NCBI RefSeq assembly: GCF_004010195.1
Contig: NC_057751.1
Coordinates: 5,511,223 to 5,575,222, forward strand
DNA: 64,000 nucleotides
DNA from: Chiloscyllium plagiosum
Lineage: Eukaryota
Direction of reading: 5' to 3'
The position numbers and the translations under genes were made by a program. Under the pieces are notes generated by a model. It searched no databases. It saw only the letters and a program-made list of their open reading frames with translations, and was not told the DNA's origin. Shown here in pieces: positions 1,542-47,484 of the stretch (within the stretch, counting starts at the first letter, position 1; each line of letters starts with the position of its first letter).

Positions 1542-1747
1542 ATTTCCTTGAGACAGTCCACCCCAACTGTAAACACAAACTCCACTCTGGTGTAATCCTC
1601 TGCATTTCCTAAACAAAGAGAACGTGCAGTTTCCTTAAAATCCGTTCATGGGGTTAGGCCAGCATTTATTGCCCATCTCTCGTTAAGAGTCACCCACGTC
1701 ACTGGGGTCACGTGTAGGCCAGAATGGGTAAGGTCTCCTCCTGAACT

Positions 1748-1782
1748 AGTCCTGAAGAAGGGTCACACCCGAAACGTTGACT
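1748..1782 (+). ncRNA. Minimal hammerhead ribozyme motif (PLE family B)
   Basis: AGTC-CTGAAGA-A-GGGT-CAC-ACCC-GAAA-CGTT-GACT: stem I AGTC/GACT, stem II 4 bp, palindromic ACGT stem III, GUU triplet. Confidence 0.7.
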
Positions 1783-2219
1783 TCTCCACCTCTGGATGCT
1801 GCCCGGCTTGCTGTGTTCTTCCAGCCTCCTGCCTGTCCACTTTGGATTCCAGCACTTGCAGTTTTTTTTTGTCTCATACCAGGTAAGGTCGCAGTTTCCA
1901 TCCCCAGAGGACATTAGTGATCCAGGTGGGCTTTTCCAACAATTGACAATGGATTCACGATCAACATTAAACATTTAATTCCAGAATTCTATTGAATTCA
2001 AATTCCACTGTCAGTTGTGACAGGATTCAAACGCAGGTTACTTGGGTCTTCTGATTTCCAGTCTCATGATAATTCCATTGGGACATCACCTCCCCCCGAT
2101 AGAGACATTTTAATTCTGTTCTGCTCTCTTTGCGGACGGTGCCCCAGCTGACTGGAGTTTTCCAAAATGCTCTTCTGTTTTCATTCTCACAATGGAGTTA
2201 TTCTACAGTCCTCTTAACT

Positions 2220-6905: not shown

Positions 6906-7124
6906 CAGGTAAAAACAATGACTGCAGATGCTGGAAACCAGATTCTGGATCAGTGGTGCTGGAAGAGCACAGCAATTCAGGCAGCATCCGAGGACAGGCA
7001 AAATCGACGTTTCGGGCAAAAGCCCTTCATATTCCTGATGAAGGGCTTTTGCCCGAAACGTCGATTTTGCCTGTCCTCGGATGCTGCCTGAATTGCTGTG
7101 CTCTTCCAGCACCACTGATCCAGA
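6906..7124. mobile_element. Palindromic PLE pLTR mini-element with hammerhead core
   Basis: Perfect 87-bp inverted repeat (6944-7030 / 7038-7124); CTGATGA 7035-7041, GGGC/GCCC stem, GAAA-CGTC; 15-bp TSD GAGAGAGAAAGCACA at 6891-6905 and 7123-7137. Confidence 0.9.
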
Positions 7125-16794: not shown

Positions 16795-18860
16795 CCCAAA
16801 AGAGAAAATGCTGAAAAATCTCAGCAGGTCTGGCAGCATCTGGAAGGAGAGAAAAGAGTCTAACTGACCCTTTGTCAAATCTGAAAAAAAGGGGAGAAAT
16901 AGGGAGGTATTTATACTAGCCTGAGAGAAGGTGAGTCGTGGTTCCAGAAGCAAAGGTAGCAATAAAGAGGTGATAATGACAGTGCATAGAGAGAGACTAT
17001 AGGGAGATTAGGAGCTGTGAGTATCCAAGGCTGAAGTCAGTGCTATGTGACAAAATATGTGGGGGATGGAGGGGGATGGGTGAAGCAGAGACAAAATGGA
17101 AAACAGGGGAGAAGGGTAGAAAAGGAGGAAGAGGAGAGGAAAAAGGTGTTAAGAGAGTGGGGAGCGAGAGAAAGAGAGACGATCAAGAAATAAGAGGTAC
17201 AGAACAGTGAAAAAAAATTAAAACACAAATTAAATAAATAAAATAAATGAAATATAATTACGGAGCAGAATGAAAACAGAGGGGTCGAGATGGGATAATC
17301 ATCTGAAGTTGTTGAATTCAATGTTGAGACCGGCAGGCTGTAACGTGCCCAGTTGGAAGATGAGATGCTGTTCCTCCAGTTTGCGTTGAGCTTCACTGGA
17401 ACATTGCAGCAGGCCAAGGACAGACATGTGGGCATGGGAGCAGGATTGTGTGTTGAAGTGACAAGCCACGGGAAGGTCCGGGACCTGATTGCATACAGAC
17501 CGAAGGTGCTCTGCAAAGCGATCACCCAGTCGGTGTTTTGTCTCTCCGATATAGAGAAGACCACATTGGGAGCAACGAATGCAATAGACCAAATTGAAAG
17601 AGGTACAAGTGAAACGCTGCTTCATCTGAAATGAGTGTTTGGGGCCTTGGATGGTGAGCATGGAGGAGATAAAGGGGCAGGTCTTGCACCTTCTGCGATT
17701 GCATGGGAAGGTGCCGTGTGTGATGGGAGATGTATTAGGTGTGATGGGAAGGTGCCGTGTGTGATGGGAGAGGTGTTAGGTGTGATGGGAAGGTGCCGTG
17801 TGTGATGGGAGAGGTGTTAGGTGTGATGGGAAGGTGCCATGTGTGATGGGAGAGGTGTTAGGTGTGATGGAGGAGTGCACTAGGTTGTCCCGGAGGGAAC
17901 AATCTCTGCAGAATGCAGACAGGGGGAGGGAAGGGAAGATGTGTTTAGTGGTGGCGTCGTGTTGAAGTTGCAGAGGATTATTCTTTGCATGTGAAGGCTG
18001 GTGGGGTGAAAGATGAGAACAAGAGGGACCCTATCCTTGTTCTGGGAGGGGAGGGAGGGGGTGAGGGTCGTGGCACGGGAGATGGACTGCACACAGTCTC
18101 GAGTCCTGTCAACAACTAGAGGTGGGAAGCCACAGTTGGAGAAGAAGGAGCACATATTAAGAGCACCACTTTGGAAAGTGGCCTCATCAGAACAAATGCG
18201 GCGGAGGCGAAGGAGCTGAGATAGAGGGATAGGGTCCTTACAGGACGTAGGGTGAGGACAGCTGCAGTCCAGATAGCTGTGGGAGTCAGTGGGCTTGTAA
18301 CGGACACTAGTGTATAGACTATTGTCGGAAATGGAGACAGAAAGGTCAAGGAAAGGAAGGCAAGTGTCGGAGATGGACCAGGTGAAGGTGATGGAGGGAT
18401 GGAAACTGGAAGGGAAGTTTATGAATTTTCCCAGGTCAGGACGAAAGCATGAAGCCGCACCGAAACAGTCATCGATGTACCGATAAAGCAGTTGTGGGAG
18501 GGGACCTGGGTAGGCCTGGAACAAGAAATGTTTCATGTACGCCATGAAAAGGCAGGCATAGCTAGGACCCATGCGGATACCCATTGCTACACCTTTGATT
18601 TGGAGAAAATGGGATGAGTTGAAGGAGAAGTTGTTGAGAGAGAGAACAAGTTCAGCCAGGCGGAGGAGAGTGGTGGTGGATGGAGATTGTTGTGGCCTCT
18701 TTTCGAGAAAGAAGCAAAGAGCTTTCAAGCCGTCTTGGTGTGGGATGGAGGTGTAAAGAGATCGCACATCCACGGTGAATAGAAGGTGGTTAGGGCCTGC
18801 TGTCAATATGGCGCAGGGCATGAGAGGAATCCCGGATGGAGGTGGGGAGAGAGTGAAACA
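16795..18860 (-). mobile_element. Penelope-like element (Neptune-type), 5'-truncated, with RT, GIY-YIG endonuclease and pLTR
   Basis: RT motifs DVRSLYTSIP, GVAMGIRMGPSYACLFM, YRYIDDCF and LPFLDL; GIY-YIG NLVYCIRCSQCGLLYIGETKHRL..EH; frameshifted. Confidence 0.93.
17703..17870. repeat. Tandem repeat, 41-bp unit x4
   Basis: ATGGGAAGGTGCCGTGTGTGATGGGAGAGGTGTTAGGTGTG starting at 17703, 17744, 17785 and 17826. Confidence 0.95.
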
Positions 18861-20122: not shown

Positions 20123-20859
20123 CTGAAAGAGAGCCACATGGATTATCAATGGAGCTGACCAACTCTCTCAGAAAGATGACGAGCCTCTCTTCCTCCCCGC
20201 TCCCCACAATGGCACAAAGGAGTAGGACACATCACACAGCGAAGTCTTTCGGAGACCTGCACTGGCCCCCAATCTGTACAGATCAGTCAACCAGGATTGC
20301 AAGCAGCAGACGGTCAAACCAGTTGTTTTCGTGCCCCACCTTGTGGCAATCGGTGGAACAGCAGTGGCAGGGGTTTCAGCAGATGATGGAGTTGAGCTGA
20401 CTTGGCACAAGGTCGAAGGGTTCCACAGAACAGGCAGGGGCCATTTGGCCCATTGTGCCCATGCCTGTCATCAAGCACTTAACCATTTCCCAGCACTTAG
20501 CATCTCAAGTCCTCGTCTAAACAATTATTTAACGTTGCAATGCTTCCTGCTTTTAGCAACATTTCAGGGCAGAGTGTTCCAGATCTGTACTATGCTGTGG
20601 GTGAAAAATAATCTATAAATTCCCTCTAAACCATCTGCCTTTCACCGTTAAATCTAAGGCTCCTGGCCATTGATCGCTGTATGATGGGGACATGTCTCTT
20701 CCCGTCCACCCCACCTTTGCTCTTCATAGTCTTGTACATGTCAGTCAGACATCACCCTCTGCTCAAAGGGAAACTGTGGAGGATGTGCCACAACAGCTGC
20801 GTGATGGGGAGTCCACAATGCAACTGTCACTAACTGTCGTACGGTCATGTTCCACAAAC

Positions 20860-20984
20860 ACCTGATGAAGAGGCAGCGCCTCAAAAGCAAGTGCTTCCAA
20901 ATAAACCTGTTGGACAATAACCTGGTGTCGTGTGATTGTTAACGTTGTCTACCCCAGTCCAACACCGGCACCTCCAAATTATGT
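20860..20984 (+). mobile_element. Hammerhead-headed PLE mini-insertion (family C, core degenerate)
   Basis: CAC-CTGATGA-A-GAGGC-AGC-GCCTC-AAAA-GCAA-GTG (GAAA mutated); homologous to 45648-45780; CACAAAC duplicated at 20853-20859 and 20985-20991. Confidence 0.75.
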
Positions 20985-21309
20985 CACAAACCAGACAGGT
21001 GAAGAAGCATCGAAATAACAACCAGCTGCATTTGGAGTGTGGTTTTTTATGCGGATGACAGACCTGGACTTGATGGGAAGAGCAGATCGATTTGCTAAAC
21101 AGCCCTGAACTGAGGACTTGGGGAAGAATGGAAAGGAAGTGCTGGACAGGAAAAAGAAAAGTGGAAAAAAAACTTAAGTGAAGTGCGTTGGAGAGCGACT
21201 GAAGGAAGAAATCGCATTGAGGAAAAGACAGTATCTCAGCGGAAAATGTAAGAGCATGATGGAGGGAGGATTTGAAGGAAAATGAGGAAGAGGTTGTCAA
21301 CACTGGACA

Positions 21310-34166: not shown

Positions 34167-34395
34167 CTCGGTAAAAACAAGGACTGCAGATGCTGGAAAC
34201 CAGATTCGAGATTAGAGTGGTGCTGGAAAAGCACAGCACGTCAGGCAGCATCCGAGGAGCAGGAAAATCGACATTTTGGGCAAAAGCCCTTCATTAGGAA
34301 TCCCTGATGAAGGACTTTTGCCCGAAACATCAATTTTCCTGCTCCTCAGATGCTGCCTGACGTGCTGTGCTTTTCCAGCACCACTCTAATCTAGA
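34167..34395. mobile_element. Palindromic PLE pLTR mini-element (same design as 6906-7124)
   Basis: ~90-bp imperfect arms (34209-34298 / 34303-34392), CTGATGA at 34304-34310; 14-bp TSD AAATGCAAATTCAT at 34153-34166 and 34396-34409. Confidence 0.88.
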
Positions 34396-36087: not shown

Positions 36088-36791
36088 GGAGAAAGTGAGG
36101 ACTGCAGATGCTGGAGATCAGAGCTGAAAATGTGTTGCTGGAAAAGCGCAGCAGGTCAGGCAGCATCTAGGGAACAGGAGAATCGACGATTCGGGCATAA
36201 GCCCTTCTTCGGGAATGAGGAAAGTTGGTCCAGCAGGCTGAGATAAAAGGTAGGGAGGAGGGACTTGGGAGAGGGGCGTCGGAAATGTGATAGGTGGAAA
36301 GAGGTCAAGGTGAGGGTGATAGGTCAGACTGGGATGGGGGCGGAGAGGTCGGGAAGAAGATCTCAGGTTAGGAAGGCGGTGCTGANNNNNNNNNNNNNNN
36401 NNNNNNNNNNNNNNNNNNNNNNNNNNNNNNNNNNNNNNNNNNNNNNNNNNNNNNNNNNNNNNNNNNNNNNNNNNNNNNNNNNNNNNNNNNNNNNNNNNNN
36501 NNNNNNNNNNNNNNNNNNNNNNNNNNNNNNNNNNNNNNNNNNNNNNNNNNNNNNNNNNNNNNNNNNNNNNNNNNNNNNNNNNNNNNNNNNNNNNNNNNNN
36601 NNNNNNNNNNNNNNNNNNNNNNNNNNNNNNNNNNNNNNNNNNNNNNNNNNNNNNNNNNNNNNNNNNNNNNNNNNNNNNNNNNNNNNNNNNNNNNNNNNNN
36701 NNNNNNNNNNNNNNNNNNNNNNNNNNNNNNNNNNATAGGGGAGGGGAGGGAAATATATCCTTGGTGGTGGGGTCCGTTTGGAGGTGGCGGA
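36088..36791 (-). mobile_element. PLE 3' fragment with pLTR inserted in the L1 inter-ORF region
   Basis: Reverse complement of 1285-1540 and ~960-1015; 9-bp TSD AATATTATC at 36079-36087 and 36792-36800; spans a gap. Confidence 0.85.
36386..36734. other. Assembly gap
   Basis: Run of N. Confidence 1.
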
Positions 36792-41360: not shown

Positions 41361-41989
41361 AGGTCTACCAAGTTGAAGGTTTATGTATAGATTTCCAATG
41401 ACCTTGTCAAAGTCCTCCATGTCCCACTGTATTGACGACTGCTAAACTGTAATTTGTGTGTGCTGTGACTACTGACTGCTCACGTTACTAAGGACCTGTG
41501 CTGTTTCTGATATTTCCCACACTTTAATTTGAACTGTGACAAATAGGTCATGGTGGTATGAAAGCACAGGGAAATTGAAGTACAAAAAATGTGCCAGCAA
41601 GACTAGAATTGGTAGTGACATCCAGCAGCTGCTGAACAGTCTCCAATATGAAGATGTCACAGTTGAAGTACGACTCAGGAAAAAGAGACGGTACAGGTGG
41701 CCTTGATGAATCAAGAATCACCCTTGATTCCATTTCTTCCATTTGAGCAAGATGAATTGACATTGCAGACTGAGGATGTCACTGTCACAGAACTGTGTCA
41801 TCTGCTGGAGCAGGACTTCAATCTGAAGGGGTGGATGAGTGCGGCTATTCAGATAGCCGTCAAGGTAACTATGAAGCTAGATTTTTAACCAATTGGTGGC
41901 TTCCAATAATCCGCTAGGGGCCTGGGTGGGATCTATCAATCCTCAGTGCACAAATGTATTAAGGTTATTAAAGTTTGGGTGCTCGTTGT

Positions 41990-42683
41990 TGTGGTTCTGT
42001 TCGCTGAGCTGGAAGTTTTTGTTGCAAACGTTTCGTCCCCTGTCTAGGCGACATCATCAGTGCTTGGGAGCCTCCTGCGAAGCGCTTCTTTGTTGTTTCC
42101 TCCGGTGTTTATAGTGGTCTGTCCCTGCCGCTTCCGGTTGTCAGTTTCAGCTGTCCGCTGTAGTGGTTGGTATATTGGGTCGAGGTCGATGTGTTTGTTG
42201 ATGGAGTTTGTGGATGAATGCCATGCCTCTAGGAATTCCCTGGCTGTTCTCTGTCTGGCTTGCCCTATGATAGTAGTGTTGTCCCAGTCGAATTCATGTT
42301 GCTTGTCTGCATCAACTAGCCACGAAACGACACGACCAGCTATCCTTAGTAGCCACACACGCAGACAACAAGCAACATGAATTCGACTGGACAACACTAC
42401 TATCATAGGGCAAGCCAGACAGAGAACAGCCAGGGAATTCCTAGAGGCATGGCATTCATCCACAAACTCCATCAACAAACACATCGACCTGGACCCAATA
42501 TATCAACCACTACAGCGCACAGCTGAAACTGACAACCGGAAGCGGCAGGGACAGACCACTATAAACACCGGAGGAAACATCAAAGAAGCGCTTCGCAGGA
42601 GGCTCCCAAGCACTGATGATGTCGCCTAGCCAGGGGACGAAACGTTTGCAACAAAAACTTCCAGCTCGGCGAACAGAACCACA
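41990..42683. mobile_element. Inverted-repeat Penelope (Poseidon-like) 3' end with a hammerhead in each arm
   Basis: ~320-bp arms; peptide HEFDWDNTTIIGQARQRTAREFLEAWHS..INKHIDLDPIY (GIY-YIG C-terminus); GCA-CTGATGA-T-GTC..GAC-GAAA-CGTT-TGC at 42610-42649 (+) and 42063-42024 (-). Confidence 0.88.
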
Positions 42684-44154
42684 GCAGAGAACATAGAATG
42701 TTATGGCCAATGGGGGTATCTTCCGTCAGCATTATTTATCATTTATTACATGATGAAGTATCGAGAGATATGGACAATCTGCTTAAAACATGGGATCAGG
42801 ATTTGGGGCTGGAAATCTCCATAGACATGTGGAATGACATTTGGGAAAATGCCAGAAAAATTTCCATCTGCAACAGAACCCAGGCCATTCAGTTGAAGAT
42901 ACTTCACAGGCTCCATATGGCACTGGACCGATTGGCAAAATTTAAGGCAGGAGCATCTCCAATGTGTCCCAAATGTAAAACAGAGGTGGGCACTCTTGTA
43001 CACTGCTTATGGACTTATCATAAGATCCGTAAATATTGGACTAAAGTAGCAAATGCCCTGACAGAAATTAGAGTGCATCCAGTATCTTTCCTTTTGGGCT
43101 TTTCAAGCTTACCTTCCCTGGATGTGCACAGGAAGAAATTATTTTCCATTCCCTCTTTCTGTGCAAGGAAAAATATTTTGGTAAACTGGGTGGCTGAGGG
43201 CCCTCCTGGACTTTTGAATTGGCACAGAATAATCATGGAATATATTCCCCTTGACTTCCTTACAAACTTAGTGCACCAAAAAACCGAATTATTCCATAAA
43301 ATATGGCAGCCCTTCTTGAATTATACAGATAGATATTTCGACCATTATATCAAGGGCTTTTATCTCATTGAGACAACGGCCCTGGCTGGTCCGGGGCCCC
43401 TTGGGAGAAGAATCCTGAACAAATACGGGTTCTGTTACGATCTGATGTTAACACATTCCGAGCATGTACTTTACTACTCAATTTCTGTGTTATCCATTGT
43501 TTTTTCTTTTCTTGAATAATGTAAGAGATTTAATCATACACTCTGGTTAGTTGTCGGTTCGATTAGTAGTAGTTGAGTTTTGTCTTTGTTTTTCTTTTCG
43601 GTATCTCTTCTTTTGTTTAATAGATTTTGGCTATTAATTATTTAAGATTTAATTGTATATAAATGTTTATACTTGGGGTTTTTTTTATTTGTAAACTTGT
43701 AAAAACATGTTAAATTTTCAATAAAAATATCGATAAAAAAACATGAATTGTTTCTCTCCAGGTGTTACCAGATCACTGAGTTTCTTCACTAATTTCTACT
43801 TTTGTATAAGTTTTCTTTCTATGTCTCCTGATATTATTGCCCGAGGTGTGAAATAATTTCACAACTGGCTGGGATCCAACTACAATCTTTCAAAGCTGTT
43901 GGTACATAAGTAGGCTAGTTTGCCTAGTTTCAATCCCACAACAGCATCAAAGTACATGGTGCCATCATCTCAAGACGACTACAGGCTGTTCTCTCACCAA
44001 AGAGAGGCATTTGCAGGACAGTCATTTTTCAAACTGTGTTTAAACAACACTTCAATGAACCAAGTGGTGGGTAACTATGGGAACTTTATTGTAAAATGTT
44101 TTTCTCAGATCACATATGGGATAAACCACATGCATTTATGGAATAAAAACTGAT

Positions 44155-46065
44155 AGAACTGCAGATGATGTAAATCATAAATAAAAACAAAAGTTGCAGG
44201 AAGAGCTCAGCAGGTCTGGCAGCATCTATGAAGAGAAATCAAAGTTAACGTTTCGGGTCCAGTGACCCTTCCTCATTACTAATGGTAGCTAGAAAATGTC
44301 AGTTTAAATGCATAATATAGGGTTGGCGGTTGGGGAAGGGATAAGGAGTAAACAATAGGTGGGGAGAGACAAGGGAGTGGATAAGGAGGGTGAGTAGCTG
44401 TTACTGGAGACTGTTAATGGCTAACAATCGGTAGCATGTAATGGCAGACGATGTGATAAAAGGCCTGGTGCATGGGGTAGGATGTTAAGACATGGGAGAG
44501 TTCAGGCCCTAAAATTATTGAACTCGATATTGAGTCTGGACCGCTGCAGGGTCCCCAAGTGGAAAATAAGGTGTTGTTCTTTCAGCTTGTGCTGAGCTTT
44601 GCCGTAGCACTGCAGCAAACCTGAGACGGAGATGTTGACCAGGGAACAGGTTGGTGTGTTAAAGTGGCAAGCAACTGAAAGCTCAGGGTCTTCATTGCGG
44701 GCAGCATGTAGATGTTCTGTGAAATGGCCACCCAGTCTACCCTTTGTTTCCCCAATGTAGGCAAGGCCACATTGTGAGTAGTGAAAACAGTAGATCAGAT
44801 TGTGAGAGGTGGTGGCACAGTGACTCAGTGGTAAGCACTGTTTTGGCAGTTGCAGGGGAGGGTGCCATGGGGGGTTATTGGGAGTGAAGGAAGAGAGTAC
44901 CAGGCTGTCCTGGAAGATGGACAACCGCTAAAGGTGGAATCCCCAATGTGGAAACAGGCCATTCTGTCGCACAATTCCACACCAACCCTTTGAAGGTCAT
45001 CCCATCCACACCCATATCATCCTGAATTTCCCATGGCTAATGCACCTACTCTACGTATCCCTAAACACTACTGGTAATTTAACATGGCCAATCTAACTAA
45101 CTTGCACATCTTTGGATTGTAGGAGAAAACTGGAGCACCTGAAAGATGGACAAGGAAGAGACCGTTCCCTCCAGGACACATTTCCTTCATTCATAACACC
45201 TACGCCCCCCAACCCCACTACCACCACAACACCTTTCCCGGCAACTGCTGAAGGTGTGACATTAGCCCATTTCCCTCCTCAGAATCCAAGGGCCCTAACA
45301 AACCTTCCAGGCGAAGCAGGACTTCTGTACCTGCACTTCTCATAACCCAGTCTATTGGATTCGCTGATCACAATGTGGTCTCCTCTATATTAGGGAAACA
45401 AACGGTCGACTGAGTAACTGATTTGCATGACATCTATGTGCCCCTGCAATACAGACCCTGAACTGACAATTGCCTGCCACTTTAACACACCACCTTGATC
45501 CCTGGCTAACATCTGTCTCAAACCTCCTGCTGGACTCCGGCAAAGTTCAAGTTGGAAGAATAAACCTCATTTTCTTCTTGGGGCCGCTGCAGCCCGCTAC
45601 CCCATACACCAGGCCTTGTTATAGACTGCCAAACACACTTCCTATTGCACTCTCACCTGATGAAGGAGCGATGCTCTGAAAGCTAGTGTGCTTCCAATTA
45701 AACCTATTGGACTATAACCTGGTGTTGTGTGATTTTTAACTTTGTACACCCCAGTCCAACACCAGCATCTCCAAATCATACCTATTGTTAGCTACCAACA
45801 GTCTCCATGAATAGCTATTCATCCTCCTAGCCAGATCGTTAACCACTCCTTTGTCTGTCTAACTGTTCTCTCTCTTTGAGCTCTAGCAGCACCTATTGTT
45901 TACTCCTTACCTCCCCGCTCCCCACCCTATCTTCTGCATACAAACTGACATTTTTCTAGCTACCATCAGTTCTGATGAAGGGTCACCGGACCCAAAACAT
46001 TTACTCTGATTTCTCTTCACCGATGCTGCCAGATCTGCTGAGCTTTACCAGCAACCCCTGTTTAC
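44155..46065. mobile_element. Two diverging PLE GIY-YIG/pLTR 3' ends with nested SINE and mini-element
   Basis: Minus NLIYCFHYSQCGLAYIGETKGRL (44502-44810) and a degenerate plus copy (45300-45600); pLTRs with decayed hammerheads at 44245-44280 (-) and 45968-46005 (+). Confidence 0.8.
45654..45688 (+). ncRNA. Minimal hammerhead ribozyme motif (family C) in a 133-bp insertion (45648-45780)
   Basis: CAC-CTGATGA-A-GGAGC-GAT-GCTCT-GAAA-GCTA-GTG; palindromic AGCT stem III; TSD CCTATTG at 45641-45647 and 45781-45787. Confidence 0.7.
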
Positions 46066-46564
46066 GTTTATGTAACACCTTCGCAAAAGGCATCAATCCT
46101 AAACAATTATTGCATACCACTAAATCTGAACTGCAGTCAGGTTTTCAGAAAACAATTTTCCCCAGCTTAAGTTCCCTCAGACAGCCACTTCATTCAAAAA
46201 CAGAAATTGCTGGAGAAACTCAACATGTCTGGCCGCACCTGTAGAGAAAAAAAGTCAACACATCTGTTTCAGTGACACTATATCACAGAAATGTTAACTC
46301 TGCTTTCTCTCAAGCAATGCTGGCAGATCTTCTGATGTTTCTGCAGGACCTTCCGGTTTTGTTTTAGGTTTCCAGCGTATGCATTTGTCGGTTTTATTAC
46401 AAACAGTTGATTCATCTGTTGTGTGTGTGTGTAGCTGATGGTGCAGAAAGGGCACAGTCAGTGACAGCAGCCTGGTCTTCTATTTATGCCTTGGGAACAT
46501 TTTGATTCATGCCCCAGCCACACAAAAAGGGAACACTCAAGCTTAGTTTTCTCTCTGATCCAAG

Positions 46565-47484
46565 ATTTTGGGAAAGCAAATCTGAGCAGGATGTAAACAC
46601 TTAATGGGTAAGGTCCTAAAGAGTGTTACTAAACAAAGAGGCCTTGGACAGCAGGTTCATAGCTCCTTGAAAGTAGGAGTCACAGGAAGATAAGATAGAG
46701 AAGGCGGCATTTGGTATGCTTTCCTTTATTGGTCAGAGCACCGAGTACAGGAGTTCGGAGGTCATGTTGCGGCTGTACAAGACATTGGTTTGGCCACCTT
46801 TGGAATATTGCGTGCAATTCTGGTTTCCTTCCTATTGGAAGGATGTTGTGAAACTTCAAAGGGTTCAGAAAAGATTTACAAAAATGTTGCCAGGGTTGGA
46901 GGATTTGAACTATAGGGAGAGGTTGAATAGGCTGGGGCTGTTTGCCCTGGAGTGTCAGAGGCTGAGGCGTGACCTTATCGAGGTTTATAAAATCATTGGA
47001 GCATGGATAGGATAAAGAGACAAAGTCTCTTCCCTGGTTTGGGAGAGTCCAGAACTAGAGGGCATAGGTTTAGGAGAGGGGATTCCTGAAGAAGGGCCTG
47101 TGCCCGAAACGTCGAATCTCCTGTTCCCTGGATGCTGCCTGACCTGCTGTGCTGTTCCAGCAATAAAGTTTCAACTTTGATCTCCAGCATCTGCAGACCT
47201 CACTTTCTCCTTAGGAGAGGGGAAAGATATTAAAGAATTCTAGGGGGCAACTTTTTCACGTAGAGGATGGTGAGTGTGTGGAATGGGCTGCCAGAGCAAG
47301 TGGTGGAGGTTAGTAAAATTACAACATTTAAAAGGCATCTGGATGGGTATATGAATAGGAAGGGTTTGGAGCGATATGGGCCCGGTGCTGGCAAGTGGGA
47401 CTAGATTGGGGTAGGATATCTAGTCAGCATGGATGAGTTGGACTGAAGGGGCTGTTTCCATGCAGTACATCTCTATGACTCTCT
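46565..47484 (+). mobile_element. CR1 3' fragment
   Basis: EVMLRLYKTLVWPPLEYCVQFW..RVQKRFTKMLPGL..DLIEVYKI and a typical 3' UTR. Confidence 0.9.
47081..47118 (+). ncRNA. Minimal hammerhead ribozyme motif (family A), best-preserved copy, in a 128-bp insertion (47083-47210)
   Basis: GATTC-CTGAAGA-A-GGGC-CTGT-GCCC-GAAA-CGTC-GAATC: stem I 5 bp, stem II 4 bp, ACGT palindrome, GUC triplet (predicted cut after 47113); 13-bp TSD TTAGGAGAGGGGA at 47070-47082 and 47211-47223. Confidence 0.78.

What the first reader, a model, noticed from the sequence alone, without database searches (positions are those of the whole stretch)
47070..47223. Ribozyme-headed ~130-bp mini-retroelements recurring across three Penelope families
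Seen: four short insertions, each bounded by its own direct duplication, begin within ~2-16 nt upstream of a hammerhead core and end ~95-105 nt past the predicted cleavage site. They are 47083-47210 (13-bp TSD), 45648-45780 (7-bp), 20860-20984 (7-bp) and 1736-1881 (9-bp). Their stems differ but pairing is kept (stem I GATTC/GAATC, AGTC/GACT, CAC/GTG; stem III palindromes ACGT or AGCT), which looks like covariation. Established: PLE pLTRs carry minimal type I hammerheads with palindromic stem III that can act as dimers, and retrozymes are non-autonomous hammerhead retroelements with circular RNA intermediates. Inference: these are either a shark non-autonomous ribozyme mini-element class or stereotyped PLE truncation products. 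Each copy spans the cleavage junction, so the template was uncleaved or re-ligated/circular RNA, and RT repeatedly stopped at the ribozyme fold.
Basis: partly seen in the sequence, partly recalled or inferred. Interest (0 to 1): 0.78.

Follow-up and report, generated by a model that had tools for sequence, protein, structure and literature searches.

The report
Penelope leader stubs mark capped start
These four ~130-base insertions are real, but they are short end pieces of ordinary Penelope-like jumping genes, and because thousands of sister copies begin at the same spot just before the ribozyme motif, often behind an extra G, they are likely DNA copies that ran off the capped front of the element's uncut RNA rather than a separate self-spreading mini-element.

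Summary
The four insertions, their flanking duplications and hammerhead-like cores are there; the 20860 core is mutated. They belong to three very abundant Penelope-like (PLE) families. In 1.35 Mb of arbitrarily placed genome stretches, copies found by their 3' tail alone end 6-18 times more often per base at -10..+5 of the core than further upstream, and not at the cleavage site. The edge sits on an initiator-like A about 30 nt behind a TATA-like box (-4 or -8, by family). Where the parent's C is absent, the base before that A is G in 63, 78 and 37 of 100 listed copies in three subfamilies (26% expected). Short and long copies interleave on a tree. Best reading: reverse transcription primed inside the 5' leader runs off the capped end of uncleaved mRNA. 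An independent mini-element, a stall at the ribozyme and a circular template are not supported. No RNA start was mapped directly, and a fourth family shows no such edge. Earlier notes of this scan reached the same reading on other DNA; my library searches found no paper with it.

The parts
47070..47082 (+). left target duplication (13 bp); its last two bases GA also read as the extra G plus the +1 A (-4) of the element
   Evidence: parent has C at -5; empty site spans the junction
47083..47210 (+). leader-only copy of PLE subfamily A1, ending at the distal (tail) 3' end; no coding sequence (ORF ATG lies at +162 from the core)
   Evidence: 16,520 exact genome matches to a 46-nt tail stretch
47082..47117 (+). 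minimal type I hammerhead: stem I 47082-85/47114-17, core 47086-92, stem II 47094-97/47102-05, GAAA 47106-09, palindrome ACGT 47109-12, predicted cut after C47113
   Evidence: sequence, fold; activity untested
47211..47223 (+). right target duplication (13 bp)
45641..45787 (+). family B leader-only copy 45648-45780 with 7-bp duplications; starts at -9, core 45657, palindrome AGCT, predicted cut after A45685
   Evidence: 14,688 exact matches to a 37-nt tail stretch
20853..20991 (+). family B leader-only copy 20860-20984 with 7-bp duplications; core decayed (AAAA, AGCA); the left duplication resembles the parent's -9..-3, so the start is ambiguous (-2 to -9)
1727..1890 (+). family F leader-only copy with 9-bp duplications: filler 1736-1747, element from 1748 (-4), core 1752, stem I AGTC/GACT
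36088..36340 (-). longer family A copy that continues upstream through the TATA-like and initiator-like motifs (parent form in the window)
44159..44927 (-). long family D copy: same kind of leader, preceded by a 141-aa GIY-YIG-like reading frame (44505-44927)
6911..7116 (.). head-to-head pair of family A leader copies joined at the core's 5' edge (second pair at 34173-34385)

Best explanation
The insertions are the non-coding 5' leader of endonuclease-bearing Penelope-like elements, likely copied when the element's reverse transcriptase primes inside that leader and runs off the likely capped first base of the uncut mRNA. Shown: copies of families A, B, D and F share two 3' ends about 65 and 100 nt past GAAA, a 5' edge at -4 (A) or -8 (B) from the core, a non-parental G before that edge, and no separate lineage. 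Inferred: transcription starts at an initiator A about 30 nt behind a TATA-like box in the pLTR, which puts the hammerhead in the first ~40 nt of the mRNA; the protein nicks a target and primes at one of two internal sites (shown in vitro for the anole element PAc, not for these families); priming on the 3' pLTR copy of the RNA gives long, randomly truncated copies, priming on the 5' copy gives 95-135 nt; the cap is copied as a C, read as G in the genome; the cDNA end joins the target, a second cDNA (head-to-head pairs, about half of the short copies) or a further site on the RNA (short tandems). Solo copies lack the upstream promoter and are predicted to be dead on arrival; the ribozyme in them would be a passenger.
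For: End hazard at -10..+5 vs -11..-100: A 87/1907 vs 19/4926, B 36/681 vs 10/1213, D 40/448 vs 3/593. Bimodal 3' ends match the two RT starts and tail of PAc, where ribozyme mutants insert normally from uncleaved RNA (PMC11167929). Parent majorities show TATA-like and initiator-like motifs 30-32 nt apart with the A at -4 (A, D, F) or -8 (B). Non-parental base before that A, hand counts of the first 100 listed: G 63 of 100 (A2, 8,093 matches), 78 of 100 (B, 1,477), 37 of 100 (F, 352); expected 26%; p 2e-14, 8e-27, 0.013. One base further in, G is 1 of 10 and 1 of 11. Upstream contexts of the G copies differ from each other, so G is not a parent variant. Pieces that include the ORF start begin at -4..0 in 8 of 30, at -10 in 1, at -18 in 2, and none further upstream. 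Tree: 40 changes vs 38.4 shuffled (A), 8 vs 7.4 (B).
Against: No transcript start was mapped. Family C has TATAAA at -53 (predicted start near -23) and no pile-up there: 0 ends at -25..+5 among 11 at risk; most of 30 further C loci are long, by eye. The G excess is weak in family F (37 of 100) and in A3 (55 G to 45 A). Among young A copies the mode is -3 rather than -4 and ends smear to +12. Many G junctions lie in inverted pairs where the G could also come from the partner arm, or in CTG fillers that could be template slips. The initiator consensus is short and recalled, and easy to match by chance. Family D had only 5 long references, so its breakpoints are less sure. The cap-copy precedent in L1 is recalled; two searches did not find it in the library.
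Confidence: 0.75

Rival explanations
1. Reverse transcriptase stalls at the ribozyme (or at a protein-bound ribozyme dimer) on a long tandem RNA, and the partial cDNA is integrated.
For: In A, D and F the edge coincides with the first base of the 4-bp stem I; the hazard rises as the core is crossed.
Against: The copies include the whole fold; the hazard at +16..+62 is low (A 0.002-0.006 vs 0.046 per nt); in B the G-marked edge is at -8 while stem I ends at -3; family C has a hammerhead and no pile-up; a stall does not explain a G fixed to one position.
Confidence: 0.08
2. The RNA end at -4/-8 is real but is made by processing, not by initiation, and the G is an untemplated C added by RT at any template end.
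For: An extra C on cDNA can arise without a cap (recalled); in D. virilis the intron end maps to the 5' end of helix I (PMC4209133).
Against: TATA-like spacing tracks the edge across families with different offsets; copies share no upstream exon; the hammerhead cut lies about 33-38 nt downstream of the edge.
Confidence: 0.08
3. The short copies form an independent non-autonomous, ribozyme-headed family (SINE-like or monomeric retrozyme) that retrotransposes from its own copies.
For: Very high numbers (86 solo short copies in 1.35 Mb), fixed size classes, target duplications; animal retrozymes derive from pLTRs (10.64898/2026.07.22.740005).
Against: No short-copy clade, and identical short and long rows (only 86 columns); 5' junctions and fillers differ copy to copy; no promoter left, no poly(A), no tandem structure in the four copies.
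Confidence: 0.06
4. The template was a hammerhead-cleaved, re-ligated circular RNA.
For: Copies span the cleavage junction; circles were proposed for PLEs (PMC4209133); short tandems exist.
Against: Spanning the junction is what uncleaved RNA gives; a circle has no end at -4/-8; tandem junctions join variable +186..+286 positions to about -4, not cut site to cut site; 10 of 344 ends within 2 nt of the cut.
Confidence: 0.03

Closest known systems
EN+ Penelope-like element insertions: 5'-truncated copies, inverted 5' partner, pLTR, 30-40 bp tail (PMC8557442 passages; PMC3846280 passages)
   Same: pLTR-derived, two 3' ends about 35 nt apart, inverted partner in about half of short copies, 7-17 bp duplications, TATA plus Inr-like motif noted in rotifer pLTRs.
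   Different: The passages I saw treat 5' truncation as unpatterned; here the 5' end piles up at one family-specific base with an extra G.
PAc (Poseidon of Anolis carolinensis), PMC11167929, parts 1-2 of 4 read
   Same: RT starts at two internal sites downstream of the hammerhead, uses uncleaved RNA, extends both target strands.
   Different: In PAc the ORF starts inside the hammerhead; in family A the ATG is at +162, so the copied piece is non-coding. The parts read do not map the RNA 5' end or report cap copying.
Minimal hammerheads of metazoan PLE pLTRs (PMC4209133, parts 1-2 of 4 read)
   Same: Short helix I, bulged base before helix II, palindromic 15.1-16.1, thousands of solo motifs 'probably related to truncated PLEs', opposite-strand pairs.
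   Different: That paper gives no breakpoint map; it proposes cleavage and circles, which these ends do not show.
Animal non-LTR retrozymes (10.64898/2026.07.22.740005, parts 1-3 of 5 read)
   Same: pLTR-derived, non-coding, type I hammerhead; monomers noted as dispersed derivatives.
   Different: Defined as tandem repeats with at least two hammerhead units; the four copies are monomers made afresh from the PLE by my tree and junction tests.
Extra 5' G on full-length L1 insertions and retroviral strong-stop DNA (both recalled, no call)
   Same: RT reaches the capped 5' end; a short leader cDNA is made by priming near the 5' end.
   Different: Here the primer is nicked target DNA and the short cDNA is integrated.

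Membership tests
EN+ Penelope-like element (derivative) | RT and C-terminal GIY-YIG coding sequence upstream of the same repeat in long copies | tested here: met
   Family D frame resembles GIY-YIG clusters at 0.96; it hits 13 of 41 long A references on the element strand, and an RT-like frame hits 6 of 41 (Pfam RVT_1 only E 0.0016). Family B: one RT-like and one GIY-like hit among 18. Family F not tested. No intact full-length copy was fetched.
EN+ Penelope-like element (derivative) | hammerhead in the pLTR, repeat continuing into the ORF start | tested here: met
   ATG at +162 in family A.
EN+ Penelope-like element (derivative) | optional 30-40 bp tail, inverted 5' partner, target duplication | tested here: met
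   3' ends near +65 and +100; inverted partner in 77 of 163 short copies; duplications of 7-17 bp in 19 of 86 solo short copies.
EN+ Penelope-like element (derivative) | clade (Neptune vs Poseidon) by RT phylogeny | not tested
   No reference RTs on hand; 'Poseidon-like' for family C and 'Neptune-like' for A/D are recalled resemblances.
Minimal type I hammerhead | CUGANGA...GAAA core with paired stems I and II and palindromic stem III | tested here: met
   Met in 47083, 45648 and 1736 (the last with U at the cleavage position) and in 7 of 8 subfamily majorities for the palindrome; not met in 20860; no Rfam hit.
Minimal type I hammerhead | self-cleavage as a dimer | not testable with these tools
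   Cofold gave no stem III dimer as the minimum-energy form; this does not test activity.
Non-LTR retrozyme | tandem repeat of at least two hammerhead-bearing units | tested here: not met
   The four copies are monomers; tandems were 5 of 378 A, B and D copies in the sample.
Non-LTR retrozyme | own lineage, amplified from its own copies | tested here: not met
   Short and long copies interleave; resolution limited by 86-89 columns.
Non-LTR retrozyme | circular RNA intermediate | not testable with these tools
   Needs RNase R and divergent RT-PCR; genomic ends do not sit at the cut.
SINE | internal Pol III promoter or tRNA/5S/7SL head, A-rich or repeat tail | not tested
   No promoter scan was run; by inspection the whole insert is PLE leader.

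The most novel reading that the evidence does not exclude
Penelope-like elements routinely make a strong-stop-like cDNA: priming in the 5' leader, run-off at the cap, then a jump to a second cDNA, the target or a site further down the RNA. That one step would build the inverted pLTRs and the short hammerhead tandems from which animal retrozymes are born, and it places the ribozyme in the first 40 nt of the mRNA, where a protein-assisted cut would remove the cap and switch the RNA off rather than mature it. The extra-G footprint would then map promoters of extinct PLE families from DNA alone.
Probability: 0.35. Interest if true: 0.75.

Novelty: new variant of a known kind. Interest (0 to 1): 0.5.

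Why it matters
How PLEs transpose, and what their hammerhead does, are open questions. If about half of the insertions in a 3.6-Gb vertebrate genome (163 of 378 sampled copies; roughly 400,000 arms by extrapolation) are leader-only run-off cDNAs, then the transcript start, the ribozyme's place at the RNA's front and the use of uncleaved RNA become predictions at single-base resolution that CAGE data or the existing in vitro PAc assay can test. It also warns against annotating such stubs as SINEs or retrozymes.

Tried and rejected
Rfam scan: no hammerhead family; miRNA hits are the inverted pairs. No RNA holder was listed for the A1 stretch. Laying one single-cell poly(A) run (about 2 in 100 of it read; a second run gave no reads) and two contig sets showed both strands, 93-98% of reads running on into unlike sequence, and no place where many molecules begin: no test of the start. 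Pfam found no family for two GIY-YIG-like frames, PDB and the longer-protein search gave nothing. Pile-up at the cleavage site: rejected. G as a parent subfamily base: rejected. Separate short-copy lineage: rejected. A start at -23 in family C: not seen. Literature searches for cap or extra-G signatures in PLEs and in L1 returned 0 papers; shark plus Penelope plus hammerhead returned one review, seen as a listing only. The library lacks most subscription papers and I read no supplements, so absence from print is not shown. A genome-wide G count for subfamily A1 itself was not run; the local tally for family A solo copies reaching -4 is G 7, T 4, C 3, A 2 of 16.

Full report
Observation. Removing the insert restores a common repeat across the junction for 47083 (106 of 116 hits) and 1736 (22 of 30); the two 7-bp cases had 1 and 0 hits and could not be tested this way. 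Three copies carry an intact minimal hammerhead; 20860 has lost GAAA and the palindrome. Positions below count from the C of CTGANGA.

Families. 47083 belongs to family A (subfamily A1; 16,520 exact matches to a 46-nt tail stretch), 45648 and 20860 to family B (14,688 matches to a 37-nt stretch), 1736 to family F (971 candidates). The window also holds families D and C (C: 7,041 matches). Long copies continue upstream into coding sequence: the D frame resembles GIY-YIG clusters (0.96) and matches 13 of 41 long A references on the element strand; an RT-like frame matches 6 of 41; B has one hit of each among 18. Downstream, family A runs into an ORF whose ATG is at +162. The short copies are therefore the non-coding leader of PLEs.

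Breakpoint map. I fetched 140 arbitrarily placed 10-kb stretches (1,350,398 non-N bases), found copies with profiles of the tail only, and extended each upstream against long references. I kept hits with E below 0.001: A 212 of 220, B 76 of 77, D 90 of 104, C 12 of 12; F-type copies fall into A or D here. Ends per base of exposure at -10..+5 against -11..-100 were A 87/1907 vs 19/4926, B 36/681 vs 10/1213, D 40/448 vs 3/593; pooled ratio 11, and 6 against +6..+30. 3' ends are bimodal near +65 and +100 past GAAA. Ends within 2 nt of the cut were 7 of 198, 1 of 71 and 2 of 75. Of 163 short copies, 77 have an inverted partner and 86 are solo; 19 of the 86 showed a duplication of 7 bp or more.

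What sets the edge. Majority sequences of long copies show an initiator-like A at -4 (A, D, F) or -8 (B), 30-32 nt behind a TATA-like stretch (clear TATAAA in B, weaker in the others; the consensus motifs are recalled). If the edge is a capped RNA end, a non-parental G should precede that A. Genome-wide patterns that exclude the parent's C gave, by hand count of the first 100 listed matches: A2 63 G, 20 A, 17 T of 8,093; B 78 G, 8 A, 14 T of 1,477; F 37 G, 30 A, 33 T of 352; 26% G is expected from base composition (p 2e-14, 8e-27, 0.013). A3 gave 55 G to 45 A (p 0.005). One base further in, G was 1 of 10 and 1 of 11. The sequences upstream of 30 fetched B matches differ from each other, so the G is not inherited from a variant parent, though in inverted pairs it often coincides with a G of the partner arm and some junctions carry CTG fillers. 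Of 30 pieces that include the ORF start, 8 begin at -4..0, one at -10, two at -18 and none further up; the rest begin further downstream or at gaps. So the RNA that begins at the edge runs on through the ATG, as an mRNA would. In 10 of these 30 the piece ends at a variable place past +186 and is followed within 0-7 nt by the next core, which fits a jump after run-off and not ligation at the cut.

Not a separate lineage. On trees of core plus tail, short and long copies interleave: 40 label changes against 38.4 shuffled in A (67 short, 52 long, 86 columns), 8 against 7.4 in B (26 and 8); two sets of identical rows hold both kinds. Copies with ends between the two classes or with short tails were left out of the trees. 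Stems I and II pair better within than between eight subfamily majorities; this conservation belongs to the parent PLEs and is already described (PMC4209133).

Against. No RNA start could be mapped. Family C has TATAAA at -53 and a hammerhead, yet shows no ends at -25..+5 among 11 at risk, and by eye most of 30 more loci are long, with a few ends near -55..-70. That hurts the ribozyme-stall reading and also limits mine: either C starts elsewhere or it rarely primes on its 5' leader. The mode in young A copies is -3 with a smear to +12, which I read as trimming during joining, untested. An untemplated C added at an uncapped end cannot be told from a cap copy by DNA alone.

Comparison with what is known. 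Internal priming at two sites, use of uncleaved RNA and extension of both target strands were shown for PAc (PMC11167929, parts 1-2 of 4 read). Solo minimal hammerheads tied to truncated PLEs, and low activity as dimers, are in PMC4209133 (parts 1-2 of 4). Inverted partners, tails and duplications are in PMC8557442 and PMC3846280, the latter also noting TATA plus Inr in a pLTR (passages). A pLTR promoter was mapped in D. virilis (PMC2377424, passages). Retrozymes are defined as tandem units derived from pLTRs (10.64898/2026.07.22.740005, parts 1-3 of 5). PMC6765202 was seen in passages; the dimer-cleavage paper it cites was seen only as a reference. Searches found no paper that maps PLE 5' ends to a cap footprint; the library is partial and supplements were not read.

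Earlier notes. I entered the cap run-off reading before the first look-up. Several unreviewed notes of this scan, on this genome and others, reach the same reading; they are not independent evidence.

Verdict. Real and highly non-random, but a by-product of known elements rather than a new class. The mechanistic clue, a family-specific capped start at the hammerhead's 5' edge, is inferred and directly testable. New variant of a known kind; interest 0.5.

Noticed in passing
G000 C1:16163040/16163264, C1:26522075/26522299, C2:128770210/128770434, C3:80905364/80905588 (L296, L297, L300, L301): A 224-nt tandem unit (leader plus ORF start, one hammerhead per unit) recurs at four of the loci among 100 listed matches, with the same junction in the two loci I read; a candidate true non-LTR retrozyme lineage derived from family A.
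   Followed up: partly
L302 and L306; L308 and L318: Pairs of distant loci appear to share the same ORF-start-to-leader junction, hinting at further small non-autonomous sublineages.
   Followed up: no
window 41980-42693; L201-L230: Family C (hammerhead with long stem II) forms a 305-nt inverted pair here; about 5 of 30 loci end at -55..-70, just before TATAAA, instead of at the core.
   Followed up: partly
window 6911-7116 and 34173-34385: Head-to-head leader pairs score as microRNA precursors in Rfam below the gathering threshold; likely false annotations, but they would make hairpin RNA if transcribed.
   Followed up: partly
L231-L260, L261-L290: Many junctions carry CTG or CCTG just before the +1 A, as if the cDNA end re-paired on the ribozyme's own CUGA and copied a few more bases.
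   Followed up: no
window 45400-46072: The 45648 copy seems to sit inside a longer family D Penelope-like copy whose core is at 45972.
   Followed up: no
L291:1527 onward; L294 minus strand: The family A ORF begins with a long N-terminal region ending in Thr/Ala/Pro-rich repeats that run into assembly gaps, which may explain why full-length copies are hard to find.
   Followed up: no
window 17662-17907: 41-bp minisatellite of about five units.
   Followed up: no
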